14,115 bases of DNA from a virus, in UHGV virus genome UHGV-0305805; one strand, given 5' to 3'. Under the pieces are notes generated by a model, which worked only from the letters and a program-made list of their open reading frames with translations, had not been told where the DNA came from and did not search any database. Both the position numbers and the translations under genes were made by a program. Of the stretch, positions 1-14,115 are shown one piece after another. Position 1 is the stretch's first letter. Every line of letters begins with the position of its first letter.

Positions 1-133
1 AACAGCATACAGAAGGGGCTTAAAAGCCCCTTTAGTGTTTTATGGGTGAAAAAATTATGAAGAGTATGGAAATCCGGTCATCGGAAATCACTACCAGCGG
101 AGCCGGTACGCTGACGGGCTACGTTGTTCGCTG
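1..133. repeat. Inverted repeat, left copy: exact reverse complement of 3003-3135
   Basis: Base-by-base comparison: 1-133 equals the reverse complement of 3003-3135, and identity stops at 134 (g versus t). It contains the palindromic hairpin GGGGCTTAAAAGCCCC (14-29) plus T-rich tract, and the first ~30 codons of the protease gene. Confidence 0.9.
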
Positions 134-614
134 GGATAAGCTTTCAGAACTGCTATGGGGGGAGTTTTACGAAAAATTCCAGCGGGGGGCGTTTACTGAG
201 TGGCTTGCGGCGGGTAATGACGTTCGCGGCCTGTATGAGCATGACCACAGCATGTTACTGGGGCGCACCCGTTCCGGCACGCTGAAACTGGAAGAGGACG
301 AAACAGGGTTACGCTTTGAACTGACCCCACCGGATACCAGTACAGGGCGCGACGTTATCGAACTGGTTAAGCGTGGGGACATCTCGGGGATGAGCTTTGG
401 CTTTCGCTCCCGTAAGGATGTATGGGATACCACAACAGATCCATGCGTGCGCACCGTGCTGGTGGCGGAACTGTACGAAATTACCGTTACATCGGTACCG
501 GCTTACCCCGATTCCGGCGTGGAGCTGGCCCGCCGTTCCCTGTATGAGCAGCACCCCGAAAAAATGCCGCGTGCGGATAATCGCCGCTGGTGGGTGGATT
601 TAGCGGGGGTGTGA
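42..614 (+). CDS. Prohead maturation protease, HK97 / S78 family
   Basis: 190-aa ORF with the conserved histidine context LYEHDHSMLLGRT and serine context DISGMSFGF typical of this protease family. Stop overlaps the portal start region. A likelier start is ATG at 57, preceded by GGGTGA. Confidence 0.85.
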   Translation: MGEKIMKSMEIRSSEITTSGAGTLTGYVVRWDKLSELLWGEFYEKFQRGAFTEWLAAGNDVRGLYEHDHSMLLGRTRSGTLKLEEDETGLRFELTPPDTSTGRDVIELVKRGDISGMSFGFRSRKDVWDTTTDPCVRTVLVAELYEITVTSVPAYPDSGVELARRSLYEQHPEKMPRADNRRWWVDLAGV

Positions 615-615
615 T

Positions 616-1827
616 ATGTGGCCTTTCAGAAGAAAAAAAGAGCAGCGCAGCATGACGCTGGATGAATTTATGGCGCTGGCTGGCACATCGAACACGGGGG
701 CGGGTGAGTACGTATCATCGGGGACAGCGGAATCACTGCCCGCCGTCATGAACGCCGTGACGGTCATCTCTGAGGCGGTGGCTACCATGCCGTGTTACCT
801 GTACCTGGTACGCAATGAGAAGGGGAAGGAGGCCCGCGAGTGGCTTGATTCTCATCCGGTCGATCACATCCTCAACGAGCGCCCGAACGCATGGCAAACC
901 CCCTACCAGTTTAAGCGAATGATGATCCGCCACTGCCTGTTAAACGGTAATGCTTATGCGGTGATTCAGTGGGGGCGTGATGGTTTTCCGGCGGCTTTAC
1001 ATCCTTACCCGCCGCAGTCGGTGAACGTGGAGCAGACAGGCGAACACAACTGGCGCTACTGCATCACTGACGCCTACACCGGAAACACCCGCAACTATTT
1101 ACCGTGGGAAGTACTTCACCTTCGTTACTCCACGGATGACGGCTTTATGGGGCGCTCACCTGTAACCATCTGCCGCGAATCGCTGGGGCTTGGGCTGGCC
1201 CAACAACGCCACGGCGCGAGCGTGATGCGTGATGGCATGATGGCGGCAGGGGTTATCACGTCAGGCGAATGGCTGGACGGCGTGAAGGGCAAACAGGCAT
1301 TAGCCGCACTGGAACGCTACAAAGGGGCCAGAAACGCCGGAAAAACGCCCATCCTTGAAGGGGGTATGAGCTATCAGCAGCTGGGCATGAGTAATCAGGA
1401 TGCTGAATGGCTGGCCTCCCGTCGCTTCACCATTGAAGACATCGCCCGAATGTTCAACGTCTCGCCGATTTTTTTGCAGGAATACAGCAACAGCACCTAC
1501 AGCAATTTCAGCGAGGCAAGCCGCGCATTTCTCACCATGACGATGCGCCCGTGGCTGGCGAACTTTGAGCAGCAGATAAAAAACGCCCTGCTGGTGGCCT
1601 CGCCTGTACCTGGTATCCGGTATCAGGTGGAGTTTGACAGCGCGGACCTGTTACGGGCCACACCTGGCGAACGCTTTGCCACCTATGAGCGCGGCATCAA
1701 ATCCGGCGTTATGTGTCCGAACGAAGCCCGCGAACGTGAAGGTCTGTCACCGCGTGATGGTGGTGATGAGTTCAGCCAGGCATGGAAACAGGAAGTAAAA
1801 ATCAGCGAGGGAGAAAAACCGGAATGA
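616..1827 (+). CDS. Phage portal protein (HK97-family-like)
   Basis: 403-aa ORF immediately after the protease and followed by head-completion genes; size and position fit a portal. Its stop overlaps the next start (ATGA). Confidence 0.75.
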   Translation: MWPFRRKKEQRSMTLDEFMALAGTSNTGAGEYVSSGTAESLPAVMNAVTVISEAVATMPCYLYLVRNEKGKEAREWLDSHPVDHILNERPNAWQTPYQFKRMMIRHCLLNGNAYAVIQWGRDGFPAALHPYPPQSVNVEQTGEHNWRYCITDAYTGNTRNYLPWEVLHLRYSTDDGFMGRSPVTICRESLGLGLAQQRHGASVMRDGMMAAGVITSGEWLDGVKGKQALAALERYKGARNAGKTPILEGGMSYQQLGMSNQDAEWLASRRFTIEDIARMFNVSPIFLQEYSNSTYSNFSEASRAFLTMTMRPWLANFEQQIKNALLVASPVPGIRYQVEFDSADLLRATPGERFATYERGIKSGVMCPNEAREREGLSPRDGGDEFSQAWKQEVKISEGEKPE

Positions 1828-2162
1828 ACATAGGGCGACTGCGTGACAGGATAACGATTCAGACCCTGAAACAGACCAGGGATATAACCGGCGAAATACT
1901 CGAAACGTGGGAGGACGGTCACACACTCTGGGCAAGCGTGAACATGGTCAGCAGCAAGGAGGCCATTTCATCGGGCGCAGAGCTGGCGATTGGTACCGTA
2001 AGGATCTGGATACGGTACCGGAAGGACATCAACGCCACCAGCCGGATAAAGGTCAGTACGGGGCCGCTGGCGGGGCGTGTACTGAATATCATCGGGCAGC
2101 CGCTGCCGGATGCCGCCAGGACACGCCTTGAAATTCTTTGTCGTGAGGGCGCGGAAAAATGA
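1824..2162 (+). CDS. Head closure / head-tail joining protein
   Basis: About 112 aa starting MNIGRLRDRITIQ at an ATGA overlap with the portal stop; contains an IRYRKDI-type motif common in head-tail joining proteins. The ORF track extends it to 1782. Confidence 0.6.
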   Translation: MNIGRLRDRITIQTLKQTRDITGEILETWEDGHTLWASVNMVSSKEAISSGAELAIGTVRIWIRYRKDINATSRIKVSTGPLAGRVLNIIGQPLPDAARTRLEILCREGAEK

Positions 2163-2455
2163 CAGAAGAACTTATCACCCTGGAAGAAGTGAAACTCCAT
2201 TGCCGCATCGATGGCGACGATGAAGACCAGTTAATCAGCGGATACATTGCCGCATCGCTTGAGGCGTGCCAGATACACATAGGCAGGCGCTTTGATGACG
2301 GGCTGGAGTTCACGCCAGCCATAAAGATTGGCTGCATGATGTTTATCGCTCACCTGTATGAAAATCGCCAGATTGTCGCGGATAACGCAAAAACACGCGT
2401 ACCCATGACGATAGGCGCACTCTGGACGGCTTACCGTGATGTGGGGGTGTACTGA
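2159..2455 (+). CDS. Head-tail connector (gp6-like DNA-packaging / connector protein)
   Basis: 98 aa; N-terminal ITLEEVKLHCRIDGDDEDQLI resembles the conserved N-terminus of gp6-type connectors. Translationally coupled on both sides. Confidence 0.65.
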   Translation: MTEELITLEEVKLHCRIDGDDEDQLISGYIAASLEACQIHIGRRFDDGLEFTPAIKIGCMMFIAHLYENRQIVADNAKTRVPMTIGALWTAYRDVGVY

Positions 2456-2895
2456 TGCCGTGGCAACCATTAAGACGATGCACAGAACCAGGCTGTAACA
2501 GGCGCGTTAAATCCGGCAAGTGTGAGGAGCACAGGCGGGCGGCATGGCGTGCAGAGGATGCCAGACGAGGACACCGCCGCGCGCGTGGATATTCCAGACA
2601 GTGGGACAAATACCGCGCCATGTATCTGAGTAAAAACCCGTTATGCGTGCGATGCCTTGAGAAGGGGATATATACGCCCGCCGTGGTGGTGGATCACATT
2701 ATCCCGATTAATGGCGGTGATGATGTTCTCTTCTGGCCCGAATGGAACCATCAACCATTGTGCCAGGCGTGTCATAACCAGAAAACGAAATGGCTTGATC
2801 CGGCAACAAAAAGCAAGCGTGCCGCAGGTGGATTTCGTGAAGAGGAAGAACGGGCCGCTAACCGCAATAACTGGATGTATGACGCTGATGAATGA
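2455..2895 (+). CDS. HNH endonuclease (packaging-associated)
   Basis: 146 aa with paired cysteine motifs (CTEPGCNRRV, CVRCLEKG) and the catalytic-type region VVDHIIPINGGDD...NHQPLCQACHNQKT. Confidence 0.85.
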   Translation: MPWQPLRRCTEPGCNRRVKSGKCEEHRRAAWRAEDARRGHRRARGYSRQWDKYRAMYLSKNPLCVRCLEKGIYTPAVVVDHIIPINGGDDVLFWPEWNHQPLCQACHNQKTKWLDPATKSKRAAGGFREEEERAANRNNWMYDADE

Positions 2896-3058
2896 GCGGG
2901 AACAAAACCGCCTTATCCGTGGACTTATAAGGCAGCGTGACGCATGGAAGACACAGGAAACAGGGCATAAAGATAAAGCGTCAGGACGCGCAGAACGCAT
3001 CACAGCGAACAACGTAGCCCGTCAGCGTACCGGCTCCGCTGGTAGTGATTTCCGATGA
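2888..3058 (+). CDS. Short ORF (56 aa) whose last 18 codons lie inside the inverted repeat; possible 5' remnant of a disrupted gene downstream of HNH
   Basis: ATG at 2888 overlaps the HNH stop. Codons 1-38 are unique sequence; the remainder is antisense of the protease 5' end supplied by the repeat. The longer 2657-3058 version in the ORF track overlaps HNH out of frame. Confidence 0.2.
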   Translation: MNEREQNRLIRGLIRQRDAWKTQETGHKDKASGRAERITANNVARQRTGSAGSDFR

Positions 3059-3135
3059 CCGGATTTCCATACTCTTCATAATTTTTTCACCCATAAAACA
3101 CTAAAGGGGCTTTTAAGCCCCTTCTGTATGCTGTT
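3003..3135. repeat. Inverted repeat, right copy: exact reverse complement of 1-133
   Basis: Same comparison as the left copy. The repeat ends one base short of the last capsid codon position (capsid stop is the complement of 3134-3136). Confidence 0.9.
3091..3121 (-). terminator. Intrinsic terminator after the capsid gene
   Basis: GC hairpin GGGGCTTTTAAGCCCC at 3106-3121; on the minus strand it is followed by TTTAGTGTTTT. A second copy sits at 14-39 inside the left repeat. Confidence 0.6.
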
Positions 3136-4291
3136 AATCGTCGTCCTGTGGCAGTTCCAGAATCTTGATCGCGTTCGAATCCACCACGCCACCGCCTAAA
3201 TATTTCTGCGTGAAAATTTTGATGAAGCCCGGCTCTGTGAGGTTGTCCGGTCTGGTGCGAACACCTGTTTCGTGATCAACAATGTAGTAACCGCGTTTGA
3301 AGTCACCCAGGGCAATAACGTTATCCGGCATAAACTCCAGATATTCGACCGGAAGGCCCAGTAACGTATCAGGATCACCCGCCTGTAAACGGTCGCGCCA
3401 GATGTAATCACCGTTCGCGTTCTTCACCTTCTGAAGTTTTGCCGCCGTCGTGGAGTTAACCACCCAGACCGCGTTTTTGCGGTATTTTTTACGTAATGCA
3501 AATTTCAGGTCGATCAGCGGGTCCGCAGATGTCCACGCCAGAGATTCGGAAGGTTTAATTACCTGCAACGTACCAAAATCACGCTCTTTGTCGTTCTTCT
3601 CTGCACGGGGTACGGATAAAAAGCCTTTTGCTTTTTTGTCACCGTCGCCCACAACCAGATCGCTTTCTTCGGTTTCCGTGAAGTTGTCGCCAATCTCGCC
3701 CGTCAGCCATGAAAGGATGTCCACATCGGAAAAATCCACGATTTCCTGCGTGGTGCGCGGGTACGCATAGACCGGATACAGCTTAATGCTCACCTCGTTA
3801 ATCTGCGGGGTGCTGGTCTGTTCGCGTGCCTTACCCTCTTCACCGTGGTTAACGGTCGCACCGCCAGCGGAAACAAGCTGCTTAAACTCGTTGCTGCTGA
3901 TTTTCTTCACGGTACAGATGCGGCGCATGGTGGATTCATCCGTCAGCATTCGCATGATTTCGGTGTTCAGTTCGGGGATAACGGTATAACCACCATCAGC
4001 GGGAACGCCTGTACTTAATGCGCGGGTTTCACCTGTCAGAATGTAGTGACGTAGTTCGGCTGGGTCAGTGGTCTGACTGCTTTTACCTGGCTTGCTGCGC
4101 TCTTCGTCTGCAATGGCTTCAAGGCGGGAAATGTCTTTATCGAGGGATTCAGCTTTAGCGCGTAATTCGTCAAATTTTGCGCCCTCAGCATCGTTAAGAC
4201 TGCGGTTTTCTTTTTCCGCGTTCTCCAGCATGTCGCGCATCTGATTTTTAATGGCGGTTTTCTGCTGGCGTAATTCGATTATTCTCGGCAT
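3134..4291 (-). CDS. Major capsid protein, HK97 fold, with an N-terminal coiled-coil (scaffold-like) domain
   Basis: 385 aa. The first ~70 residues are charged and heptad-like (ELRQQKTAIKNQMRDMLENAEKENRSL...), followed by a capsid-like body. Confidence 0.85.
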   Translation of the reverse strand: MPRIIELRQQKTAIKNQMRDMLENAEKENRSLNDAEGAKFDELRAKAESLDKDISRLEAIADEERSKPGKSSQTTDPAELRHYILTGETRALSTGVPADGGYTVIPELNTEIMRMLTDESTMRRICTVKKISSNEFKQLVSAGGATVNHGEEGKAREQTSTPQINEVSIKLYPVYAYPRTTQEIVDFSDVDILSWLTGEIGDNFTETEESDLVVGDGDKKAKGFLSVPRAEKNDKERDFGTLQVIKPSESLAWTSADPLIDLKFALRKKYRKNAVWVVNSTTAAKLQKVKNANGDYIWRDRLQAGDPDTLLGLPVEYLEFMPDNVIALGDFKRGYYIVDHETGVRTRPDNLTEPGFIKIFTQKYLGGGVVDSNAIKILELPQDDD

Positions 4292-4328
4292 AAAAAAAGT
4301 CCTGGGGTTAAGTAAGGAACTCCAGGAC
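4292..4328 (-). terminator. Leader hairpin plus U7 tract directly abutting the capsid start codon; the Shine-Dalgarno lies in the 3' arm
   Basis: Minus-strand RNA reads GUCCUGG...CCAGGAC then UUUUUUU then AUG. Stem 4299-4305 pairs with 4322-4328 and can extend by about 3 more pairs; AGGA is inside the 3' arm. Confidence 0.5.
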
Positions 4329-4503
4329 GCGGCAAAAACTCAACCGTTTTTCATAAGGAAATCAGCAATCGCACCGATCGTTTTCCCGCCTGGTAATGAA
4401 TATTGGCGAGAACATTAACAGGCGGAAAAGTGGCCCCAGCGTCCTGGCACCACGGGCGAGAATAATCATGATTCAGTTCGGGTAAAATATGCCGATCCGC
4501 TCA

Positions 4504-4532
4504 GTGAACAACGTGGAACAACCACGAACAAA
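4504..4532. promoter_or_regulatory. Phased GAACAA hexamers (x3, 10-bp spacing) including CAACGTGGAACAA; upstream of the capsid gene
   Basis: GAACAA at 4506, 4516 and 4526; the 13-mer CAACGTGGAACAA at 4509-4521. Confidence 0.4.
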
Positions 4533-4540
4533 TAATTTAC

Positions 4541-4572
4541 AAAACATGACAAAAAGCCGGATTGCTCCGGCT
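4541..4572 (-). terminator. Intrinsic terminator after the PerC-like gene
   Basis: Minus strand: AGCCGG-agcaat-CCGGCT followed by TTTTTGTCATGTTTT. Confidence 0.6.
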
Positions 4573-4578
4573 GTGTGA

Positions 4579-4860
4579 TTATCTGTCCTGGTAATTTCGC
4601 CATATTTCATTACCAGCACCATCCATACCCATTTCGGCATAAGTGCGATCGACCGCCTTTTTCAGGTCTCCGTAGTTATCCGGCGGCTCCGGTGGCCTCT
4701 GTGCCTTCCTGGAACATTCCAGCCGTCGCATCGTGATGTGATGCCGTTCCTTGTCTGTCTCCACCAGTTGCATGACTTCACCCCATCGCGCCGACGCTCT
4801 CCGGTAAAAGCCTTTCGCCTCCAGTTCTTCCGCTATGCGGTCATGTACCATCGTCCCCAC
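4579..4860 (-). CDS. Small regulator, PerC / ANR-like (tentative)
   Basis: 93 aa; the segment AEELEAKGFYRRASARWGEVM resembles the motif I recall for PerC/ANR-family small regulators. This is from memory and was not searched. Confidence 0.5.
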   Translation of the reverse strand: MGTMVHDRIAEELEAKGFYRRASARWGEVMQLVETDKERHHITMRRLECSRKAQRPPEPPDNYGDLKKAVDRTYAEMGMDGAGNEIWRNYQDR

Positions 4861-4863
4861 CCC

Positions 4864-5274
4864 TCAGAACGGAATATCATCACCGTAAGGGTCATCGCCT
4901 CCCGCTGGTGGCTGATTACCCTGTGTGCCTGTGGTCTTGCGTCGGCTCCCACCAGGACGTGCCGCACGGGCACTGATTACGCTGTCTGCAATAACCTGAT
5001 AACCCTGCCGCGTTTCCCCGTTCTGTCCGGTCCACTGGCTGACCTGCATCGTGCCGGATACGCTGGCAACGTCGCCTTTTTGATGTTTAGCCAGGAAGTC
5101 GGCCTGCTTACCAAATGCGATGACCGATAGCCATAACGTCGCCTGTCCATCCTGTGCCTGGCTGCATGGCAGCGATACCGCCATACGCGCCAGCGTCATC
5201 GGTGTACCCTTGCTGGTCTGTTTTACCTGCGGGTCGTCCACCAGCCGCCCGTAAGCTGCTATCTGTGCTGTCAT
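4864..5274 (-). CDS. ssb: Single-stranded DNA-binding protein
   Basis: 136 aa; Gly/Pro/Gln-rich linker and an acidic C-terminal tail ending DDIPF, the hallmark SSB tip. Confidence 0.8.
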   Translation of the reverse strand: MTAQIAAYGRLVDDPQVKQTSKGTPMTLARMAVSLPCSQAQDGQATLWLSVIAFGKQADFLAKHQKGDVASVSGTMQVSQWTGQNGETRQGYQVIADSVISARAARPGGSRRKTTGTQGNQPPAGGDDPYGDDIPF

Positions 5275-5549
5275 GATTCCACCTCTCCGGTTTTAACGTT
5301 GATGGTTGTTACCTGTTCCGCTTCGGCAATCTCCCGCTCTGTCAGCGTGGCAAAATTTGCCGCCGTCGTGGTCATGAATGCGCTTATCAGTTCGGGATGT
5401 GCTTTCGCGTATCCTTCCCCCGCGTGGCGGTCTATCGTTCTGATTGCCACCTTTAAAGCGTGCTCTGTCATGTCTAACGCGCGATATTTCGGTTCTGTTC
5501 TGTCTCTGCGTTTTTTGAGTGATTTATTAAATTTCCCTGAAGTGTGCAT
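5271..5549 (-). CDS. Hypothetical protein (92 aa)
   Basis: ORF between the origin iterons and ssb; its stop overlaps the ssb start (ATGA). Weak ribosome-binding site. Confidence 0.45.
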   Translation of the reverse strand: MHTSGKFNKSLKKRRDRTEPKYRALDMTEHALKVAIRTIDRHAGEGYAKAHPELISAFMTTTAANFATLTEREIAEAEQVTTINVKTGEVES

Positions 5550-5597
5550 ATTTATTTTTACCCCCTCGTTTAAAAAGTTTTGAGTTGTGCCTCCCCT

Positions 5598-5824
5598 TGT
5601 CTACCTTATCTACCTTAGTGGCCCTCATACCAGTAATGGCGCGGCTTTCAGCGGGGTAGAGTGCTTTTATCCACTATCTACCCCGTGTCTACCTCCCTGT
5701 CTGATTCAGGTAAAATCAGGTAGAGAGGGTAGATAGTGGGTAGACAGTAAAAAAAGGTTATCTACCTAACTTAATGCACTGAATTAAATGTATTTTTCTT
5801 TACTCAGGTAGACAGGGTAGACAG
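5598..5824. repeat. Iteron array, putative origin of replication (GGTAGACAG family, both orientations, with an AT-rich tract)
   Basis: At least 11 copies of GGTAGA[C/G/T]AG or its complement at 5598-5614, 5653-5661, 5674-5693, 5719-5747 (three in tandem), 5758-5766 and 5807-5824 (two in tandem). AT-rich stretch at 5770-5805. Immediately downstream of the primase gene. Confidence 0.75.
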
Positions 5825-5837
5825 CAATTACAAAAAA

Positions 5838-7592
5838 TTATAAAAACGCGTCGCACTCGTCTGTTGTTATTGCGTTAGTCTGCGTTACTCCCTTAACTTT
5901 CCGCGTAATATATTCATGTCCGTAAACTTTCGCGGCTGGCTTCATAGCCTTGCCAAAGTCATTTACGTTTAGCGGTTTGCTCCTGCCTGCGTACGCCATA
6001 AACGCCAGATAGACGCGGTAAAGGCTGTTTCTGGTCGTGTACTTCACTGAATCGCCACCGCCGCCCATCATCAGGCCGCGTGCTTCCTCCAGAAAATTCA
6101 GGAACTGGCAAAACTCAATAACCGGATCCGTCTGTTGCTTTATTGCCAGAGCTTCATCACCGTCACGCTGTTCCAGTAGTAAAGCCCGTGCCTTCTCAGG
6201 GTCGGTAAAGTTCGCCAGCAATCGGCGGATAATGACAGGGATTTCAGCCGCGATCTTTTCCGGTAGCTCCCTGTCTTTTTCGGCCTCACTGACGATATTG
6301 TCGAAACGGAAAATCACGCGACGACGTGCCACACCTCCGGCCCGTTCGGTGAATATCATCGGGTTATTGTTGGTCGCCAGCACCACCGCCCTGATTACCG
6401 CCGTGAAACGCTTTTCGTATTTCGGGTTAATTTCCACGGGGTCACCGCCCGTGATTTTCTTGATGCCCGTTCCTTCGCCTGTATATTTCGGCTGGTCAGC
6501 CAGGACGATAAGACGACTCCCGACAACCTGCGCACGTCCACCAGCATCATCAAGCGATGTCATTTCAGCGCTTACCGTGTTCTGTTTCCCTGCCAGAAGG
6601 CTGGCTATGTGTGTGAATGTACTTTTACCGCTCCCGCCGTCTCCGGTGGCCTCAATAAACATCTGCCAGTCGTACCGGTTCGCCATAATCATGTACAGCG
6701 CGGCACATATACGCATCATCTTGCGCGGGTCTTTTCCGGCTGCGTGCTCAAGCCATTTATGAAAGTTTGGCGCGTTATCGCGGATGTTCTCCCCTGGTGC
6801 TGGTGGCGTGTACTCAATGCCGTTGTGCGTGGTGATCCAGTTCTCCGGCGTGTGCGGGGAAAATTCCCCCGTTTTCAGGTCAAGCGCACCATTGGCGAAC
6901 GGCAACAAATCGCCGGACGGCTCGCCCATTGGTTCGGCAATAACTTTTAACGCTTCCACGGCGTTATTGATTACGCGCTTGCTGAAAGTGGCCCTGTGCT
7001 CTGAATAGATCGCCACCATTTCGCGGCTAAGTTCCATTGTGCTGACCGGACACCATACCCCGCCGCGCCATACGTGAACGATTTCACTTTCAGGATGTAC
7101 GCAAACGCCATCAAAGCGATCGGCAAGCAGCTGCGCGCGCTCACTGTCCGCCATCTGCGAAAGTTGCGCCTTTTGCTTTACCGGAAGCTCAATGACCAGA
7201 CCATCAGAAAGATTCTGGCGCTCACGGGCCAGATATTCGCGCCAGTTCTCCACCTTCTGACCGTGCATACCATCAGGGTAAAAATTTGCATCCTGTACGC
7301 CTGCCGCCGCCAGCTTCTGACCAATCGCCTTTATCATTACTGGCGCAAGATATCCGGCCCTGAATATGCGCACGGATTTTCTGCCTTCCGGCACAATTTG
7401 CAGCTTATCCAGTTCGGATAACTGCTGCTCCCCAAGCCACACAGGAGGCTCATTATCTCCGGCCATACGCGCGTCATGTTCCTGCCATTGTTTTGCGTGT
7501 GACCAGGCATCACTACCCGCAAAAATAATGACTTCTGTTTCTTTGTGTTTTATGCCGCGTGACTGCTGTTTTACGTTCGGTGCCAGTTTCAT
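5838..7592 (-). CDS. Primase / replicative helicase, P4-alpha-like
   Basis: 584 aa; Walker A GDGGSGKST and Walker B-like LIVLADQP in the C-terminal half, with a primase-like N-terminal half. Start overlaps the upstream ORF stop (ATGA). Confidence 0.85.
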   Translation of the reverse strand: MKLAPNVKQQSRGIKHKETEVIIFAGSDAWSHAKQWQEHDARMAGDNEPPVWLGEQQLSELDKLQIVPEGRKSVRIFRAGYLAPVMIKAIGQKLAAAGVQDANFYPDGMHGQKVENWREYLARERQNLSDGLVIELPVKQKAQLSQMADSERAQLLADRFDGVCVHPESEIVHVWRGGVWCPVSTMELSREMVAIYSEHRATFSKRVINNAVEALKVIAEPMGEPSGDLLPFANGALDLKTGEFSPHTPENWITTHNGIEYTPPAPGENIRDNAPNFHKWLEHAAGKDPRKMMRICAALYMIMANRYDWQMFIEATGDGGSGKSTFTHIASLLAGKQNTVSAEMTSLDDAGGRAQVVGSRLIVLADQPKYTGEGTGIKKITGGDPVEINPKYEKRFTAVIRAVVLATNNNPMIFTERAGGVARRRVIFRFDNIVSEAEKDRELPEKIAAEIPVIIRRLLANFTDPEKARALLLEQRDGDEALAIKQQTDPVIEFCQFLNFLEEARGLMMGGGGDSVKYTTRNSLYRVYLAFMAYAGRSKPLNVNDFGKAMKPAAKVYGHEYITRKVKGVTQTNAITTDECDAFL

Positions 7593-7888
7593 TTTTTACC
7601 CCTGAATCCGTTAATCATGGTTTTCAGCTTCTGGATGTTTGCCCGTGCCCTGGCGTTGCTGGTGGACACGTTATGCGGCGCGGTCTGTACCAGAGAAAAA
7701 TCACGCCGGAACTGATAAACAGGCATCACGCAATCATATTCGTAACCTTCACGGCGGTAGGTTACGCGCCGTTCTTCCACGCCCTTAATCATTACCGTGC
7801 CGCCGTACTGGTCGCGGTAAATATCGCCGCGCGTAAATTTAGGGTGAGTGTTGCCACTGGCAGTTAAGCCAGAATATTTAAGTTTCAT
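7589..7888 (-). CDS. Hypothetical protein (99 aa), translationally coupled to the primase
   Basis: ATG at 7886-7888; stop overlaps the primase start. Confidence 0.55.
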   Translation of the reverse strand: MKLKYSGLTASGNTHPKFTRGDIYRDQYGGTVMIKGVEERRVTYRREGYEYDCVMPVYQFRRDFSLVQTAPHNVSTSNARARANIQKLKTMINGFRGKK

Positions 7889-7893
7889 TATTT

Positions 7894-8127
7894 TTATTCT
7901 CCGGTGTGCTGTTCTTTATATCTGTCGTGCAATAGATCTATTTCTTGCAGTTCCATTATTACAGGCTCAAGAAGCGTTATTAATGCCGTGGCAATTCTTG
8001 ATTTTTGTTTGTCGCGTTCATTGTCGCCAAGTGTTTCAAGCCATATGCGCAATATTTCCAGCATGTTTTCACTGTGAGAAAGTGCAAGAAATGCGCGGTC
8101 TATTGTTTCGTGGTAAATATCACGCAT
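7894..8127 (-). CDS. Hypothetical protein (77 aa)
   Basis: ATG with GAGGA upstream; overlaps the stop of the upstream ORF by 8 nt. Confidence 0.55.
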   Translation of the reverse strand: MRDIYHETIDRAFLALSHSENMLEILRIWLETLGDNERDKQKSRIATALITLLEPVIMELQEIDLLHDRYKEQHTGE

Positions 8128-8353
8128 GGCTTACATCCTCAGGAAATTTTCTTCTATAACGCGCCTCTGCCACATATTCCGCATAATCGGCGGCGATATT
8201 CAGTACATCAAGCCCCGTTGATTTATATTCTCTCGTGGAAAGTAAGAAAAAAGCCGCTCTAATAAGTTCTGGCATTGACGAAAGCGCATCAGCCGCATCA
8301 TCAGGAACGCCGGAAAATTCCTGTTTCAGGGAATTAAAACGATCATCACGCAT
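8120..8353 (-). CDS. Hypothetical protein (77 aa)
   Basis: ATG with GGGGGG upstream; 8-nt overlap with the upstream ORF. Confidence 0.55.
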   Translation of the reverse strand: MRDDRFNSLKQEFSGVPDDAADALSSMPELIRAAFFLLSTREYKSTGLDVLNIAADYAEYVAEARYRRKFPEDVSHA

Positions 8354-8711
8354 GTTTACCCCCCTGAATGACCTGATAACCGCAACTGGTCAGCAACTCG
8401 ATAAATTCCGGCAGTGTGCCGAAACAGCAATCATCACGCAGCCGTTCACAGGATACCTCGACGCCGTTTTCGTAGTGACTCACCATACATCCGGTAAAAT
8501 GCAGATCATCATCGTGATGGCTCGTTGACGGCTTAATCAGTCGCGCACGTTCCGCCAGTTCCAGCAATGCTTCAACGCTTCCGGCAATTGCACCATCCGG
8601 CAGGTGATAATTACGCACTATGCGCCCGTTCTCCACATTGACCAGCAACTGCCCGGTAAATTTCTCATCAAACTGAATGCTGTTAAGGTCAGAAATTGAC
8701 AGATTATGCAT
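8346..8711 (-). CDS. Hypothetical protein (121 aa)
   Basis: ATG at 8709-8711 preceded by a perfect AGGAGG at about 6-nt spacing. The ORF track extends it to 8729. Confidence 0.6.
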   Translation of the reverse strand: MHNLSISDLNSIQFDEKFTGQLLVNVENGRIVRNYHLPDGAIAGSVEALLELAERARLIKPSTSHHDDDLHFTGCMVSHYENGVEVSCERLRDDCCFGTLPEFIELLTSCGYQVIQGGKHA

Positions 8712-8928
8712 GGTGCACCTCCTGCACATCAGCCATGATAATTTTTCCGGCCTTATCCAGTGCCTGATCGGCTTTTAGCTGCACAAATGCTAAATAATGG
8801 AAGATGCATTCTGATTCTCTGGCTGCGTGTTTATGCGCCCTGTCAGCAATAACAGAAATATCAATAAGCGCGTGCATCAGCGTAGTGAGCGCGGCGGCGG
8901 CTGCGTCCGGTGTGGTTTTATTGCACAT
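8704..8928 (-). CDS. Hypothetical protein (74 aa)
   Basis: ATG at 8926-8928 preceded by GGAGGGG. The ORF track extends it to 8982. Confidence 0.5.
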   Translation of the reverse strand: MCNKTTPDAAAAALTTLMHALIDISVIADRAHKHAARESECIFHYLAFVQLKADQALDKAGKIIMADVQEVHHA

Positions 8929-9148
8929 GTACCCCTCCGCATTTTTTTTCGTTAGAAATAAGCGTTCTTCTTTCCTGTTCATCGCTCAGGAATACGCAGA
9001 CCTCACCGCTAAGGCGTTTAAGTAAGCCGATGATTGCCCCTGATTCGCTGTCGGTCATCATGCCAGGGTAATCCTCTGCCAGTGCGCAAATAACTTCGAT
9101 TTGGTGGGCGCGTTCTGCTGCCTGTTGTAGTGTGATTTCCTGGCTCAT
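8918..9148 (-). CDS. Hypothetical protein (76 aa)
   Basis: ATG at 9146-9148 preceded by GGGGGTAGG; ATGA overlap with the upstream ORF. Confidence 0.55.
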   Translation of the reverse strand: MSQEITLQQAAERAHQIEVICALAEDYPGMMTDSESGAIIGLLKRLSGEVCVFLSDEQERRTLISNEKKCGGVHVQ

Positions 9149-9345
9149 AAGCCTACCCCCTGACGAATACGGGCAGCAAATACCATCACGCAGCCAGCCG
9201 GAGATTGCTGGCGTGCTTCCTGTTCGCTGGTGGCCTCAATGGTAATCACGCGCGGTTGTGCCGTGCTCAGGGCGATAAAACGCCAGATGTATTTATTCAG
9301 GTTGTGCGAGTCCCGCCCTTGCGGGTGTGTGGTATGATTTCTCAT
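9145..9345 (-). CDS. Hypothetical protein (66 aa), first gene of the leftward operon
   Basis: ATG at 9343-9345 preceded by GAGGTAG. It is the C-terminal part of a 340-aa ORF in the track that I regard as spurious upstream of this start. Confidence 0.5.
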   Translation of the reverse strand: MRNHTTHPQGRDSHNLNKYIWRFIALSTAQPRVITIEATSEQEARQQSPAGCVMVFAARIRQGVGL

Positions 9346-9441
9346 AGCTACCTCGATACTTTCGCTATCGTTGGTGGTTAGAAGCCCGGTTAGTGTTAGC
9401 GCACTGCCGGGTTTCGTCGTTTCTGCACCTTGCGCCAACAA

Positions 9442-9495
9442 GGTGTTGAACACCAATTTAAACCCAGGTGTTAAACACGTCAAGTGTTGAACACT
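9442..9495. promoter_or_regulatory. Three palindromic operator-like sites, GTGTT-N-AACAC, between divergent promoters
   Basis: GGTGTTGAACACC at 9442-9454, GTGTTAAACAC at 9468-9478, AGTGTTGAACACT at 9483-9495; centres 25 and 16 bp apart. The third overlaps a -35-like TTGAAC for the rightward gene. Confidence 0.6.
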
Positions 9496-9544
9496 TATTT
9501 TTTTTCCTGCATACTGCATTTGTTTTTTATGAGGGGTACACCAC

Positions 9545-9724
9545 ATGGCGACAAAAGCGGTAAACGCAAAATCACAAACCGTTGCGGCAAGGGTTCCGCA
9601 TGAAGTTATGAACAATGTTGAGGCGGTAAAAATGCCTGGCGAAAGTACGGGGCAATTTGTTACTGCGGCATTAAAACGAGAAGTTGAATATCGCCAGCGG
9701 CGCAAGGCCAAAGAACCAGAGTAA
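9545..9724 (+). CDS. Ribbon-helix-helix (Arc/CopG-like) DNA-binding protein, candidate repressor
   Basis: 59 aa, ATG preceded by GAGGGG at 8-nt spacing. Sequence fits a beta-strand (TVAARVPHEV) followed by two helices; basic C-terminus. Below the 60-aa cutoff of the ORF track. Confidence 0.55.
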   Translation: MATKAVNAKSQTVAARVPHEVMNNVEAVKMPGESTGQFVTAALKREVEYRQRRKAKEPE

Positions 9725-9781
9725 TCACCATCAGCGCCGTGGTGTAAGGTATTACGGCGCATTGCTATGCAGGACAACACA

Positions 9782-9955
9782 ATGACCGATAAAGAATTGA
9801 CCAAAACATTATCACCGGCACGGAAAAGACGGCGCAGAAAGATAGAGCATGAATCAGAAAGATTCGCGCCATGTGCTTTTGCCCTTGAGCAATTCCTTAA
9901 AGAGTACAGGGAAAAGCGCTCATTGCAGGTATGGCAACGAACTGAACCAGACTGA
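9782..9955 (+). CDS. Small basic protein (57 aa), possibly co-transcribed with the ribbon-helix-helix gene
   Basis: ATG at 9782 with AGGA about 9 nt upstream; arginine/lysine-rich (ARKRRRRKIEHE). Coding status uncertain. Confidence 0.3.
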   Translation: MTDKELTKTLSPARKRRRRKIEHESERFAPCAFALEQFLKEYREKRSLQVWQRTEPD

Positions 9956-10050
9956 TTGCATTGCCCACCAGCCTGATAACGGCTATCATCCCCGTGCTTA
10001 TGTTTGGGATCACACACACAAACGGCGCAGCGGGTTATCTGTTCAGAAAG

Positions 10051-10078
10051 GCGGCTCCATTTCGGGGCCGCTTTTTTT
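10051..10078 (+). terminator. Intrinsic terminator ending the rightward transcript
   Basis: GCGGCTCC-attc-GGGGCCGC followed by seven T. Confidence 0.65.
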
Positions 10079-10224
10079 ATACCTGAAAAACCCCAATTTT
10101 GTTGTTTTTCAGTTTCACCAGGGCGAACGAATCCCCGCCCACGTTCTGGCGTATATTCAATCTTCATGGTTATAGCTCTGTGTTCAGATGATTGATGTGT
10201 GGCGGCTGCGTGCCGCCAGCGTGA

Positions 10225-10413
10225 TTAATGAACTGCCTTGCAGCTATCCTTCCAGGCCAGAACCTCGGATAAAGACCAGCCAACGGAACGACCGCCAAGT
10301 TTACGACGTGATGGGAATTGTCCGGCCTTTTCCAGGCGGTAGCGACACGTACGGCTAAGGCCGGTTAGTTTTTCGCATTCTTTTTCACGTATAAACCGAT
10401 CAGTGCTTAACAC
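10225..10413 (-). CDS. alpA: AlpA-family phage regulatory protein (helix-turn-helix activator)
   Basis: Contains EKLTGLSRTCRYRLEKAGQFPSRRKLGGRSVGWSLSEVLAW, matching the AlpA helix-turn-helix signature. Likely start is GTG at 10411-10413 preceded by AGGGGGG; the ORF track extends it to 10494 with a TTG start. Confidence 0.8.
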   Translation of the reverse strand: MLSTDRFIREKECEKLTGLSRTCRYRLEKAGQFPSRRKLGGRSVGWSLSEVLAWKDSCKAVH

Positions 10414-10686
10414 TATTGCCCCCCTTTCGTTTCTTAAAGAGTCATCAGGTGTCTTATTGTGTCGTATTGTTCCCGCTAGAGTGATGAATGGCAAATACTG
10501 AGGATGTATGATTTACAGAAAATGAAACAGTAAGAATAAAATCTTTTAAATTCATGTTAATACAAAGGCATAAAATATTGTTCCATGCCTTTTTTCTCGC
10601 TCTTTAAAGAGTGATTCGCTAGTGTACAAAAAACCAGTAACGCATTAAAAATCAGCCACTTATAAATCCGTACGCTTTTTCGCCTC

Positions 10687-10730
10687 TTGTTCGTAGTTGT
10701 TCCACATTGTTGCTCATTGTTGCACGTTGT
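10687..10730. promoter_or_regulatory. Phased TTGTT[C/G] hexamers (x4, exactly 10-bp spacing) ending in the complement of CAACGTGCAACAA
   Basis: TTGTTC at 10687 and 10697, TTGTTG at 10707 and 10717; the 13-mer at 10717-10729. Located between the integrase stop and alpA, in opposite orientation to the other three clusters. Confidence 0.4.
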
Positions 10731-10778
10731 ATCTGTTCGCATATCCAGTATGCGCATACTGAAAAAACACGAAAAAAA

Positions 10779-12008
10779 TTATTTTCTTCTGGCTACGGGT
10801 AGCGTGGTTACGTTTTCATGTGTTCCCGCCAGTATCCCTAACCGCTCCGTCCACATATCCAGCGCATTGCGTTTCGCATCCAGATAACGGGAATGATTAT
10901 AAACTCGCTGCATTCCTGGCATCTGGTGGCCTGTAAGCTGCTCCACGACATGCGGATCAACGCCTAAATCGTTCAGCATGGTTGTAAAGGTGCGCCGGAT
11001 GTCATGCAGTGACCAGTGAGGGTGATTAAGCCTCCTGTACGCTAATCTTCCATACTGCGATACGCTGGCCTCCTGTTTCACTTCCCCCAGCAATAAGCCC
11101 GTGTGCCTGTTCTGCTCCACCAGCTGCGTGACGAACGGCAGGATCGCTTCCGGTATGGGCCGGAATATTGCGACCTTCGTTTTGCTGTGCTCCTTCGGAA
11201 CGGTCCATAGCATTTCCGTAAAATCCCACTCCCCGATCTCCGATAACCTCAGTTCTACCGTTCTGGCTCCGAAGACAATCAGGAGGCGGATTAACGCGAC
11301 GTAGTAAGGGGAGAATATTTTTTTGTCCAGTGCCTGCAATAATTCGCCAAGTTCTTTGTTACTTAAGACACGTTCGCTTATATCCGGTTTTTTCCCAACG
11401 TCCGCAACGTTCAGATCGTCCAGAACGTTGCTGATTGCATAGCGCCGCCTACGGCAGAACTTAAGCGCCTGTTTGCACGCCTGTAGCACGAATCCGGCAG
11501 TAACAGGCGTTCGCTTTGCCACCTGGTCAAAACAGGCCAGCCAGTGCCGTAGCTCGCATTTATCCAGCGGCATAGCACCAATCTGCTGTATTACGTGATT
11601 ATTAAGTCGCCTTTTCAGGGCGATATAATCCACGCGGTTTTCCTTTACGTAATACTCAAGCCAGTAGGTGAGCGCATCGCCAACCGTTACGGGCTTTAAC
11701 GCTTCCTGTACGGTGTAATTCATCTCATGACGTGGATTTTTCCCCTCAGCCAGCCATGTGCGACACTGTGCGGCTTTTTCCCTGGCTGCTTTCAGGCTCA
11801 GATCAGGATAACTTCCCAGCTTAATGCGTTCGGGTCGTGTCTCCCTTCCCGTTCCGGCCCTGTATGTGAAATACCAGGTCAATTTCCCTGATGTTAAATA
11901 TTTCACGCTCAGGTTTCCGCCATCACTATAAAACGTGTTTTTCTCCGCTGGCTTACCATGAAGTTTCCTTAGCAAGGTATCGCTCAGTTTGTTCATTGCT
12001 CTGCTCAC
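10779..12008 (-). CDS. int: Tyrosine recombinase / integrase, P4-like
   Basis: 409 aa with catalytic-region motifs ARTVELR, HDIRRTF and a C-terminal YNHSRYLD tyrosine context. Start could be GTG at 12008 or ATG at 11996. Confidence 0.9.
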   Translation of the reverse strand: MSRAMNKLSDTLLRKLHGKPAEKNTFYSDGGNLSVKYLTSGKLTWYFTYRAGTGRETRPERIKLGSYPDLSLKAAREKAAQCRTWLAEGKNPRHEMNYTVQEALKPVTVGDALTYWLEYYVKENRVDYIALKRRLNNHVIQQIGAMPLDKCELRHWLACFDQVAKRTPVTAGFVLQACKQALKFCRRRRYAISNVLDDLNVADVGKKPDISERVLSNKELGELLQALDKKIFSPYYVALIRLLIVFGARTVELRLSEIGEWDFTEMLWTVPKEHSKTKVAIFRPIPEAILPFVTQLVEQNRHTGLLLGEVKQEASVSQYGRLAYRRLNHPHWSLHDIRRTFTTMLNDLGVDPHVVEQLTGHQMPGMQRVYNHSRYLDAKRNALDMWTERLGILAGTHENVTTLPVARRK

Positions 12009-12033
12009 GTTTTACCCCCTCTTTACGAAAAAG

Positions 12034-12056
12034 TGACTACACCAGTGACTACACCG
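12034..12056. repeat. 23-bp direct repeat, copy 1: TGACTACACCAGTGACTACACCG (tandem decamers)
   Basis: Exact match to 12267-12289. Sits 26-48 bp upstream of the integrase start and is followed by CAACGTGAAACAA (12076-12088) and phased GAACAA-like hexamers to about 12109. Confidence 0.8.
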
Positions 12057-12266
12057 ATCGTTGCACAAAGGGCTACAACGTGAAACAAGCTGGAACAAGG
12101 AAAATCACAAATCTGTTGATAATCAAAAACATAATGCACAGCCTGAAACATTATGAAACAGCAAAAAACACTAAATGATAAAATGCTGTTATATATAACT
12201 TATTTCGCATAACACATTGATTTAATTAAATAATTAACACCGCAAAAAGTGCCAAAAATCGCAAAA

Positions 12267-12289
12267 TGACTACACCAGTGACTACACCG
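12267..12289. repeat. 23-bp direct repeat, copy 2, followed by CAACGTGGAACAA (12309-12321)
   Basis: Exact match to copy 1. The 210 bp between the two copies is strongly AT-rich. Confidence 0.8.
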
Positions 12290-12551
12290 TTCGGTGCACT
12301 GTATGAAACAACGTGGAACAAATAGACACAAGAAATATACAGGCGGATCATCTTTCCAGGGGGAAGCACACCAATTCATGAGGGGCGTTAATGTCGATAT
12401 GGGGATCCCCACCTACCGGAATTTTTTTCCGGTTAAACGTTAATCAGGCTGGTGGGCTTTACCTGTTCGGTAGGTGTTATGATTATCGTAATACCTTTCC
12501 CCCAATGGGGTAAAAGCATCAACCGTAACGAAAGTCGTTATGGTTGCCACT

Positions 12552-12662: not shown

Positions 12663-12918
12663 TCCCCCATTAACCACAGGCGAATTTCCGCCTTCGGTCA
12701 TTCCTTAATCATCTGCGTAATCATAATGATTATTCAGCAAGCGCAATTTTGCGCTTTGCTTAAAGTTCAGCGAGTTACCGCGCCGACTTCCTCAAATTGA
12801 GGTTTCCGAAAATATCAGCGGGTTAGCGATTAAGCTGACCATTAATTAAACTGCGAAAATGTCGTAGTTGTGAGGGGTGTAGCCAACCCATTTTTGGGCC
12901 GTCGGGAATATCAACCAG

Positions 12919-13213: not shown

Positions 13214-13963
13214 TTACACCCCGCTAAATTCTTCCAGTTTCTGGCGGTGGCTGTCGCTTATATCAAAAGCAAAATCCTCATGCTCTGCCTGGAATGTACC
13301 AAACGCCATCAGCGCCGCCACGCTCGGGTCTATCTTGTTCGGTGATTTTTTCTTGTTCGGCTTGATATTGGCGTTCGCGTCACTCTGCATCACGACGTTA
13401 CTCATCGACCAGGACAACACCGGATCGCCACGATGCACAATCACCCTGCGGTTAACAAAAACTTCGAACGATTTCGCCGCCGGACTGAATCTGAGGTAGG
13501 TTTGCGGGAACGGCTCCACCTCAAAACCTGCCCCCTGTAATTGCGTTCTGAGATGCGTGGCGTTCCACGTATCAAAGCCCACCAGCCTGATATTAAATTT
13601 CTCCGCGTCCTGCATGATGTCATCTCTGATCCGGTCGTAATCAATGCAGTCGCCAGGCGTTGTGCGTATCCAGCCTGCTTTAGCCCACTGACGATAGATG
13701 GCGCGGTTTTTATTGGCGGGGTTCTGTAGCTGAAATTCCGGCAGATAGTGACGGGAAACCAGCATAATGGTTTTACCGACCGGAAAGGCATAGCACACGC
13801 TGGAAATATCGCTGGTTGATGATAAGTCCAGCCCCGCGTAACACTCCTGGCCGTGTAAATCTTCCTCCGTGAACGTTCCGGCACACTCAGCCCATGCGCC
13901 GTTACCCATCCACGGGGTAGCCCCCTGGCACCAGATATTAAATCGCTTTGTCATCATCTCCAC
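13214..13963 (-). CDS. Terminase large subunit, C-terminal nuclease domain only (N-terminal ATPase absent; truncated or rearranged)
   Basis: 249 aa with acidic nuclease-type motifs YAGLDLSSTSD, LVGFDTWN and KIDPSVAALMAF. No Walker A. The reading frame upstream is closed by a stop about 12 codons before the start, and the start lies inside an inverted repeat. Confidence 0.65.
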   Translation of the reverse strand: MEMMTKRFNIWCQGATPWMGNGAWAECAGTFTEEDLHGQECYAGLDLSSTSDISSVCYAFPVGKTIMLVSRHYLPEFQLQNPANKNRAIYRQWAKAGWIRTTPGDCIDYDRIRDDIMQDAEKFNIRLVGFDTWNATHLRTQLQGAGFEVEPFPQTYLRFSPAAKSFEVFVNRRVIVHRGDPVLSWSMSNVVMQSDANANIKPNKKKSPNKIDPSVAALMAFGTFQAEHEDFAFDISDSHRQKLEEFSGV

Positions 13964-13979
13964 CCACTGCGACGGAATA
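13922..13979. repeat. Inverted repeat, inner copy: reverse complement of 14058-14115, the last bases of the window
   Basis: Exact 58-bp match separated by a 78-bp spacer (13980-14057). The outer copy runs off the window, so the repeat may be longer. Confidence 0.9.
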
Positions 13980-14057
13980 GTGGATAAAGGCGAACCCTAA
14001 TATTGATGTTTCCGTCGATCGTGAAAAACTGGCCTCAACCATCCAGAAAGCGCGGGG

Positions 14058-14115
14058 TATTCCGTCGCAGTGGGTGGAGATGATGACAAAGCGATTTAAT
14101 ATCTGGTGCCAGGGG
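14058..14115. repeat. Inverted repeat, outer copy; the plus strand here reads the sense start of the terminase fragment (…IPSQWVEMMTKRFNIWCQG)
   Basis: Reverse complement of 13922-13979; the reading frame continues off the window. Confidence 0.9.

What the first reader, a model, noticed from the sequence alone, without database searches (positions are those of the whole stretch)
1..3135. Perfect 133-bp inverted repeat brackets the protease-to-HNH segment and truncates a downstream ORF
Positions 1-133 are the exact reverse complement of 3003-3135. The repeat carries the capsid terminator hairpin and the first ~30 codons of the protease. Read on the minus strand, capsid is followed by terminator and protease start, which is the natural upstream context of the plus-strand protease, so the 2.87-kb segment appears flipped relative to capsid. 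The ORF after HNH (possibly a small terminase) is cut after codon 38 by the repeat. Possibilities are a fold-back inverted duplication, a segment inverting between repeats, or a chimeric join from amplification or assembly.
Basis: seen in the sequence. Interest (0 to 1): 0.75.

Follow-up and report, generated by a model that had tools for sequence, protein, structure and literature searches.

The report
Fold-back chimeric joins in a satellite contig
The perfect 133-bp inverted repeat is real in the sequence, but it comes from one of two non-native strand-switching joins in a contig of a well-known E. coli phage satellite (a capsid-forming PICI), so it is most likely a technical artefact and not an invertible gene module.

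Summary
Positions 1-133 are the exact reverse complement of 3003-3135. A second perfect inverted repeat, 13922-13979 versus 14058-14115, ends exactly at the other window terminus.

The window is the excised (attP-form) copy of a known capsid-forming PICI that sits in tqsA in hundreds of E. coli genomes. It is 99.96-100% identical to those copies. Only two joins are non-native:
- J1 at 3002/3003: an inverted join to a site 2.87 kb away, with a 7-nt microhomology.
- J2 at 13979/13980: an inverted join to a site 78 nt away, blunt.

The 1,332 bp that lie between them in the native circle are absent. They encode the TerL N-terminus, TerS and the end of a 60-aa gene.

The 133-nt sequence is single-copy in every relative that carries it. 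The native TerL-to-capsid order is colinear in 450 of 5426 genomes, and none spans J1 or J2. Neither junction occurs in the public viral collection, and J1 occurs in no metagenome, species-representative genome, phage or plasmid collection searched.

Two nearby inverted intramolecular joins, one with short complementarity, match published amplification (MDA-type) chimeras. The best reading is a chimeric, fold-back contig. A programmed invertible module is rejected. An in-vivo fold-back rearrangement cannot be excluded without reads.

The parts
1..133 (+). Terminal copy of the inverted repeat (A). It holds the native capsid-protease intergenic region, a terminator-like hairpin (12-33) and the first ~30 protease codons. 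Its join to 134 onward is native.
   Evidence: exact 133 nt; hairpin; W1-3009 = rc of L001 14137-11129 at 100%
42..614 (+). Prohead serine protease (Peptidase_S78)
   Evidence: E 7e-48; annotation
616..1827 (+). Portal protein
   Evidence: E 2.5e-90
1824..2162 (+). Head closure / head completion protein
   Evidence: Phage_HCP
2159..2455 (+). Head-tail connector (gp6-like)
2455..2895 (+). HNH endonuclease of the HNH-TerS-TerL packaging system
2879..3009 (+). 5' part of a 60-aa conserved gene of unknown function (phrog_3173), truncated by junction J1. In the window it reads on as a chimeric 59-aa ORF, 2879-3058.
3002..3009 (.). Junction J1, the only non-native join on this side. Native sequence ending in the 60-aa gene is joined to the reverse complement of protease codon ~30, which lies 2.87 kb away. 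The 7 nt CAGCGAA (3003-3009) are shared by both parents.
3003..3135 (-). Internal copy of the inverted repeat (A'). On the minus strand it continues natively from the capsid gene.
3134..4291 (-). HK97-type major capsid protein
   Evidence: E 1.5e-61
5838..7592 (-). D5-type primase/helicase (replication module)
10779..12008 (-). Tyrosine integrase
12184..12192 (.). attP core TGCTGTTAT. The integrase-side and TerL-side ends of the integrated element are joined here, so the window is the excised/circular or concatemeric form.
13214..13979 (-). C-terminal (nuclease-domain) part of TerL, native up to 13979
13922..13979 (+). Internal arm (D) of the second inverted repeat
13979..13980 (.). Junction J2, a non-native blunt join. 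Native TerL sequence (L001 9718) is joined to the reverse complement of a site 78 nt further on (L001 9796).
13980..14115 (-). Fold-back tail: the reverse complement of native L001 9661-9796. It comprises the 78-nt spacer and the 58-nt terminal arm (14058-14115), and ends at the window end.

Best explanation
The window is a chimeric contig (or a single chimeric molecule) of a known E. coli capsid-forming PICI in its excised, attP form. The native element reads int ... capsid - protease - portal - head closure - connector - HNH - 60-aa gene - TerS - TerL - attP.

In the window the sequence switches strand twice. At J1 (3002/3003) synthesis reached the 60-aa gene, jumped 2.87 kb back onto the opposite strand at a 7-nt complementary site in the protease gene, and copied backwards through capsid, the replication genes, int, attP and into TerL. 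At J2 (13979/13980) it jumped 78 nt ahead onto the opposite strand again.

The 'inverted repeats' are not discrete elements. Each is native sequence traversed once in each direction. Each ends at a window terminus only because the sequence stops there.

The most likely origin is in vitro. Polymerase strand-switching during whole-genome amplification (MDA-type) or library preparation would produce such joins, and the assembler then carried them into the consensus.

Shown: the anatomy, the two junctions, and their absence from all relatives. Inferred: the in-vitro origin.
For: - Mapping to the native element leaves exactly two non-native joins, both inverted and intramolecular. Everything else is 99.96-100% identical and colinear.
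- A second fold-back sits at the opposite terminus, and both repeat arms end exactly at window ends.
- The 133-nt sequence is single-copy in all nine fetched loci that hold it exactly: L001, L002, L007-L012 and L016.
- The native TerL-to-capsid segment is colinear in 450 of 5426 complete E. coli genomes. None spans J1 or J2.
- J1 is absent from IMG/VR, JGI metagenomes, GTDB representative genomes, phage records and plasmid records. J2 is absent from IMG/VR. The product of the chimeric ORF is in no indexed assembly.
- The arrangement is non-functional. TerS, the TerL ATPase half and 1,332 bp of native sequence are missing, a protease fragment is duplicated and a 60-aa gene is truncated.
- The signature matches published MDA chimeras: 85% inverted, mostly less than 10 kb apart within one molecule, 2-21 nt of complementarity in over 70% of junctions, and about one chimera per 22 kb (PMC1855051).
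- Packaged cf-PICI DNA is reported to be common in virome data sets, which fits the attP-form sequence here (10.1101/2025.02.11.637232). That such libraries are frequently amplified is my own knowledge, not from the paper.
Against: - The source, reads and library method are unknown, so in-vitro origin is inferred and not shown.
- A consensus contig that follows chimeric joins instead of the native path implies that the chimeric molecules dominated locally. That needs early clonal amplification, a single-molecule or long-read origin, or a real rearranged population.
- J2 has no microhomology. Only a minority (about 6.5%) of nearby inverted MDA chimeras lack it.
- The unequal arm lengths (133 and 58 nt) do not correspond to one k-mer size, so the assembler behaviour is not fully explained.
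Confidence: 0.8

Rival explanations
1. This is a real in-vivo fold-back rearrangement. A defective cf-PICI replicon arose by replication template switching or fold-back repair of broken ends, for example after terminase cutting near the HNH-TerS region. The two junctions would together define a 24.9-kb circular inverted dimer, or a dumbbell-like molecule: a 10,977-bp stem with 2,869- and 78-nt loops, lacking TerS and the TerL N-terminus.
For: - The two junctions are self-consistent with one closed inverted-dimer molecule (geometry).
- The contig follows the chimeric path and not the native one, and lacks the 1,332-bp segment, as if the rearranged form dominated.
- J1 has a 7-nt microhomology.
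- J1 lies 50-180 nt from the HNH/TerS intergenic region. By analogy with HK97-type phages, cos should be there, so double-strand ends are made nearby. This is inference, since cos is not mapped.
Against: - J2 is a blunt inverted join with no base pairing to prime a fold-back, and E. coli lacks end joining (established knowledge).
- Two independent rare rearrangements in one 14-kb molecule are unlikely in vivo.
- Neither junction is found in any genome or collection searched.
- Such a molecule would lack TerS, and probably cos, and would exceed the small capsid's capacity, so it could not spread.
Confidence: 0.1
2. This is a pure assembler mis-join with no chimeric molecules. The assembler switched strand at a short native inverted repeat and walked back over sequence it had already used.
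For: Both repeat arms end exactly at the contig termini. That is typical of graph traversal around a loop and back into the stem.
Against: The sequence shared at the joins is only 7 nt (J1) and 0 nt (J2). This is far below any k-mer or overlap length an assembler uses, so reads that physically span the junctions must exist. The two arm lengths, 133 and 58 nt, also do not match one k value.
Confidence: 0.06
3. This is a programmed invertible module. The protease-to-HNH segment flips between 133-bp inverted repeats as a switch, by site-specific or homologous recombination.
For: Perfect inverted repeats flank a discrete 2.87-kb gene block. A tyrosine recombinase is encoded in the element.
Against: - Relatives carry only one copy of the 133-nt sequence.
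- 450 genomes show the native orientation and none the flipped one.
- The left repeat copy has no upstream context, because it starts at base 1.
- The repeat consists of coding sequence plus a terminator, not a recombination site.
- The attP core TGCTGTTAT is not at the junction.
- No invertase was found.
- The flipped state destroys the packaging operon and removes TerS and half of TerL.
- The same kind of join occurs at the other end, inside TerL, where no switch makes sense.
Confidence: 0.02

Closest known systems
Inverted chimeras of multiple displacement amplification (Lasken & Stockwell 2007, PMC1855051)
   Same: Two segments of one molecule are joined in inverted orientation, less than 10 kb apart (2.87 kb and 78 nt). 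One junction has short complementarity (7 nt). The frequency is of the order of one per tens of kb. The junctions are unique to this sequence.
   Different: It is not known that the source DNA was amplified. J2 has no complementarity. The chimeric joins are in a consensus sequence and not in single reads.
Capsid-forming PICIs (cf-PICIs; prototype EcCIEDL933; Alqurainy et al., 10.1101/2022.09.08.507074)
   Same: The underlying element has int, AlpA and a primase, plus its own capsid, protease, portal, head closure protein, connector and HNH. Intact copies also have TerS and TerL. It has no tail or lysis genes, is about 15.3-15.7 kb, uses cos-type packaging and is chromosomally integrated (in tqsA).
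   Different: The window copy lacks TerS and the TerL N-terminal half, and has the protease-to-HNH block inverted. These differences are confined to this sequence. Identity to the named prototype EcCIEDL933 was not tested.
Site-specific invertible segments (Hin/Gin/Cin G-segments, shufflons, fimS)
   Same: A gene block is flanked by inverted repeats.
   Different: There is no second repeat copy in relatives, no invertase, no alternative functional state and no population of both orientations. The repeat is ordinary coding sequence read twice.
Fold-back inversions / inverted dimers formed at short inverted repeats in bacteria and eukaryotes
   Same: The topology is the same: an inverted duplication with an asymmetric spacer and a microhomology at one junction.
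   Different: No evidence of in-vivo existence. One junction has no homology. There is no selection or amplification context.

Membership tests
cf-PICI (the underlying element) | PICI backbone: integrase, AlpA regulator, primase/replication module, chromosomal att site | tested here: met
   Integrase and D5 primase by Pfam. AlpA and the same gene order in relatives. attP core at 12184-12192 and integration in tqsA.
cf-PICI (the underlying element) | Own capsid-assembly and packaging genes (capsid, protease, portal, head-tail adaptor/connector, HNH, TerS, TerL) but no tail or lysis genes | tested here: met
   Capsid, protease, portal, HCP, connector, HNH and the TerL nuclease domain are in the window. 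TerS and full TerL are in intact relatives that are 99.96-100% identical. No tail genes in the ~15.7-kb element. In the window itself TerS and the TerL N-terminus are missing because of the junctions.
cf-PICI (the underlying element) | Induction by a helper phage and dependence on helper tails | not testable with these tools
   Requires experiments. Described for EcCIEDL933 in 10.1101/2022.09.08.507074.
Programmed invertible DNA segment | Both inverted-repeat copies present and conserved in related elements | tested here: not met
   The 133-nt sequence occurs once in each of the nine fetched loci that hold it exactly. Both window copies map to the same single reference interval.
Programmed invertible DNA segment | Both orientations found in natural populations | tested here: not met
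   450 of 5426 genomes hold the native colinear order. None holds the flipped junction.
Programmed invertible DNA segment | A dedicated invertase / recombinase acting at sites within the repeats | tested here: not met
   Only the tyrosine integrase was found, 7.6 kb away. Its attP core TGCTGTTAT is not at the junction. Small ORFs were not all scanned.
Amplification (MDA-type) inverted chimera | Second segment inverted relative to the first, from the same molecule, usually less than 10 kb away | tested here: met
   J1: inverted, 2.87 kb. J2: inverted, 78 nt. Criteria from PMC1855051.
Amplification (MDA-type) inverted chimera | Short complementarity (2-21 nt) at the junction | tested here: inconclusive
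   J1 has 7 nt (10 of 11). J2 has none. The paper reports complementarity in 93.5% of nearby inverted chimeras.
Amplification (MDA-type) inverted chimera | Junction not reproducible in independent samples or genomes | tested here: met
   No occurrence of either junction in the collections searched for it.
Amplification (MDA-type) inverted chimera | Library made from amplified DNA; junction reads a minority or clonal artefact | not testable with these tools
   The source contig, its metadata and its reads could not be found.
Terminal inverted repeats of a linear replicon | The left terminus is the reverse complement of the right terminus | tested here: not met
   Each terminal arm pairs with an internal site on its own side (1-133 with 3003-3135; 14058-14115 with 13922-13979). 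The two termini are unrelated.

The most novel reading that the evidence does not exclude
The two junctions could belong to a real intracellular molecule. This would be a snap-back or inverted-dimer derivative of a cf-PICI (about 24.9 kb as a circle) that has lost TerS, the TerL ATPase half and probably cos. It would have formed by fold-back events near terminase-generated ends during satellite replication. That would make it a DNA analogue of copy-back defective genomes, in a phage satellite.
Probability: 0.07. Interest if true: 0.5.

Novelty: not a real feature. Interest (0 to 1): 0.1.

Why it matters
If the join were biological, it would mean either a switchable morphogenesis operon in a phage satellite or a new class of defective, snap-back satellite genomes. 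The evidence points instead to a technical chimera.

The practical value is as a caution. This contig should not be taken as a complete or rearranged satellite genome. Inverted repeats that end exactly at contig termini should be treated as fold-back artefacts until reads show otherwise. Viral-genome completeness tools that use inverted terminal repeats could be misled by such contigs.

The underlying element is an ordinary, widespread cf-PICI, present in roughly 10% of complete E. coli genomes.

Tried and rejected
- **Exact junction searches.** J1 was searched in IMG/VR, JGI metagenomes and GTDB representative genomes, and J2 in IMG/VR. All returned zero, so neither the source contig nor any independent occurrence was found.
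- **Exact-product look-ups to find the source contig.**
  - The chimeric 59-aa ORF and the 249-aa truncated TerL ORF are not on record.
  - The 247- and 246-aa TerL versions hit only unrelated short contigs whose partial genes happen to start at that codon. This is a selection effect of exact matching, not a shared breakpoint.
  - The 340-aa gene is too widespread to isolate the source: it is listed in 2059 index blocks.
- **CP088587.1.** This 32.5-kb 'plasmid' looked like a possible dimer of the element. It is a chromosomal fragment with the element in native order.
- **Invertible module, composite transposon and linear-replicon terminal repeats.** All were considered and rejected. See the membership tests.
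- **Whether J1 is the cos cleavage site.** I tried to test this, but the cf-PICI papers do not map cos. Only the proximity to the HNH-TerS intergenic region can be stated.
Full report
**Observation.** The repeat is exactly as described. Positions 1-133 are the perfect reverse complement of 3003-3135. The tool extends the match to 137 nt at 99% only because of a junction microhomology. Each copy carries a terminator-like hairpin (12-33 on the + strand, 3124-3103 on the - strand) and the first ~30 codons of the prohead protease ORF 42-614.

It pairs 13922-13979 with 14058-14115 (58 nt, 78-nt spacer), and its outer arm ends exactly at the last base of the window. Both termini of the window are therefore fold-back copies of nearby internal sequence.

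**What the window is.** Pfam identifies the following genes:
- plus strand: protease, portal, head completion protein, gp6-like connector and HNH endonuclease;
- minus strand: an HK97-type capsid protein, a D5-type primase, a tyrosine integrase and the nuclease domain of TerL.

In E. coli FORC_069 (L001), and in ten further loci, nearly identical DNA is a ~15.7-kb island inserted in tqsA. Its order is int - AlpA - ... - primase - SSB - PerC - capsid - protease - portal - head closure - connector - HNH - 60-aa gene - TerS (P27 family) - TerL - 93-aa gene.

This is the gene content of capsid-forming PICIs. These phage satellites build their own small capsids and package by an HNH/TerS/TerL cos mechanism (10.1101/2022.09.08.507074; cohesive ends in 10.1101/2025.02.11.637232).

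**Mapping of the window onto L001.**

| Window | Native (L001) | Note |
|---|---|---|
| 1-3009 | reverse complement of 14137-11129 | 100% identical |
| 2999-12192 | forward from 14001 to the int-side end of the element | 434-bp indel relative to FORC_069; no indel relative to L007/L009 (99.96-99.97%) |
| 12184-13979 | 7923-9718 | 100% identical |
| 13980-14115 | reverse complement of 9796-9661 | 100% identical |

The int-side and TerL-side ends of the integrated island are joined at a 9-bp core, TGCTGTTAT (12184-12192). The window therefore represents the excised circular or concatemeric (attP) form.

Only two joins are non-native:
- **J1 (3002/3003).** The 60-aa gene downstream of HNH is joined to the opposite strand of protease codon ~30, which lies 2.87 kb away. 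Seven bases (CAGCGAA, 3003-3009; 10 of 11 with the flanks) are shared by both parental sequences.
- **J2 (13979/13980).** TerL sequence is joined, bluntly, to the opposite strand 78 nt further on.

The 1,332 bp that connect the two break points in the native circle (L001 9797-11128) are absent. They hold the TerL N-terminal half, TerS, the TerS-upstream intergenic region and the end of the 60-aa gene.

**What the repeat really is.** The joins A|B (133/134) and A'|capsid (3135/3136) are both native. The '133-bp repeat' is therefore not a discrete element. It is the stretch of native sequence that the window traverses in both directions. Its outer boundary is position 1 only because the sequence begins there. 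The same holds for the 58-nt arm at the right end. Any linear sequence that contains an inverted join near its end will show this pattern.

**Is it biological?**
- The 133-nt sequence is single-copy in each of the nine fetched loci that hold it exactly, and neither junction is present in any fetched locus.
- The native 5.2-kb TerL-to-capsid segment is held colinearly by 450 of 5426 complete E. coli genomes.
- A 1.3-kb query across J1 is spanned by none of the 522 genomes that carry the element. Every match breaks at window 2999.
- A query across J2 is likewise spanned by none of 519 genomes.
- J1 is absent from IMG/VR, JGI metagenomes, GTDB representative genomes, GenBank phages and PLSDB plasmids. 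J2 is absent from IMG/VR.
- The chimeric ORF product made by J1 is in no indexed assembly.
- The one intriguing plasmid hit, CP088587.1, is a mis-labelled chromosomal fragment with the native order.

The arrangement is also functionally destructive. It removes TerS and the TerL ATPase half, truncates a conserved 60-aa gene and duplicates a protease fragment.

**Mechanism.** A programmed invertible segment is rejected. There is no second repeat copy in relatives, no flipped orientation anywhere, no invertase, and no integrase core site at the junction. An equivalent join also sits inside TerL at the other end.

A pure assembler error is unlikely. The sequence shared at the joins (7 and 0 nt) is far below any k-mer or overlap length, so molecules or reads that physically contain the joins must have existed.

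The pattern is two inverted, intramolecular joins to sites 2.87 kb and 78 nt away, one with short complementarity, within 14 kb. This is the published signature of strand-switch chimeras in multiple displacement amplification (PMC1855051):
- 85% of such chimeras are inverted;
- they mostly join segments less than 10 kb apart within one branched molecule;
- 2-21 nt of complementarity is found in over 70% of junctions;
- 495 chimeras were found in 10.9 Mb of reads, about one per 22 kb.

Packaged cf-PICI DNA is reported to be frequent in virome data sets. From my own knowledge, such libraries are commonly amplified.

I therefore conclude, with about 0.8 confidence, that the feature is a technical fold-back chimera carried into a contig or a single-molecule sequence.

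**What remains open.** The source, library type and reads could not be found, so the in-vitro origin is inferred.

The contig follows the chimeric path and not the native one, which needs explaining. Possible causes are early clonal amplification, a single long read, or a truly rearranged population.

The two junctions are geometrically consistent with one closed 24.9-kb inverted dimer (2 x 10,977 + 2,869 + 78 bp). J1 also lies only ~50-180 nt from the HNH-TerS intergenic region, where HK97-type cos sites lie. That location is an inference, since cos is not mapped in the cf-PICI papers. An in-vivo fold-back rearrangement near terminase-generated ends is therefore not excluded, at about 0.1.

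Against it: J2 is blunt, E. coli has no end-joining pathway, two rare events would have to coincide, and such a molecule could not be packaged.

**Verdict.** However, the feature is most likely an artefact on a known, widespread element, so interest is low.

Noticed in passing
window 13922-14115: A second perfect inverted repeat: 58-nt arms, 78-nt spacer, inside terL. Its outer arm ends at the last base of the window. It marks a second non-native inverted join at 13979/13980.
   Followed up: yes
window 12184-12192: attP-type junction with core TGCTGTTAT. The integrase-side and TerL-side ends of the tqsA-integrated island are joined, so the sequence derives from excised/circular or concatemeric satellite DNA and not from a chromosome.
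   Followed up: yes
window 4507-4531, 10687-10731, 12074-12098, 12307-12321: A 10-bp-phased motif related to AACAACGTGGAACAA occurs 9 times, against 0.55 expected by chance. The clusters lie upstream of the capsid operon, at the 5' region of alpA, and on both sides of the attP core, within the 76-nt direct repeats 12030-12105 and 12263-12338. These are candidate binding sites for the integrase arm domain or for the AlpA regulator.
   Followed up: partly
window 9145-10167 (minus strand) vs L001 20144-21623: The window has an intact 340-aa ORF whose C-terminus matches phage transcriptional-repressor families (phrog_6196). In strain FORC_069 the same region carries a 434-bp insertion and is annotated as fragmented 'Icd-like' genes and pseudogenes. 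The intact form is very widespread, being listed in 2059 index blocks.
   Followed up: partly
L014 and L015, 15729-18922: At the same chromosomal site and with the same AlpA/replication half, two genomes carry a different, shorter morphogenesis module in place of the cf-PICI capsid-to-terminase block: a lambda-E-type capsid protein (Phage_cap_E) plus an HDPD decoration protein. This indicates modular exchange between satellite types.
   Followed up: no
L003 5650-7311; L016 17648-18238: Some relatives are damaged. L003 has TerL split into 303- and 247-aa ORFs. In L016 the element is truncated within the portal gene and abuts dmsC.
   Followed up: no
L002 (CP088587.1, whole record): A 32.5-kb record deposited as a circular E. 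coli plasmid consists of chromosomal genes (clcB to ydgH) surrounding the integrated satellite. It is probably a mis-assembled or mis-classified chromosomal fragment, or an aberrant excision product.
   Followed up: partly
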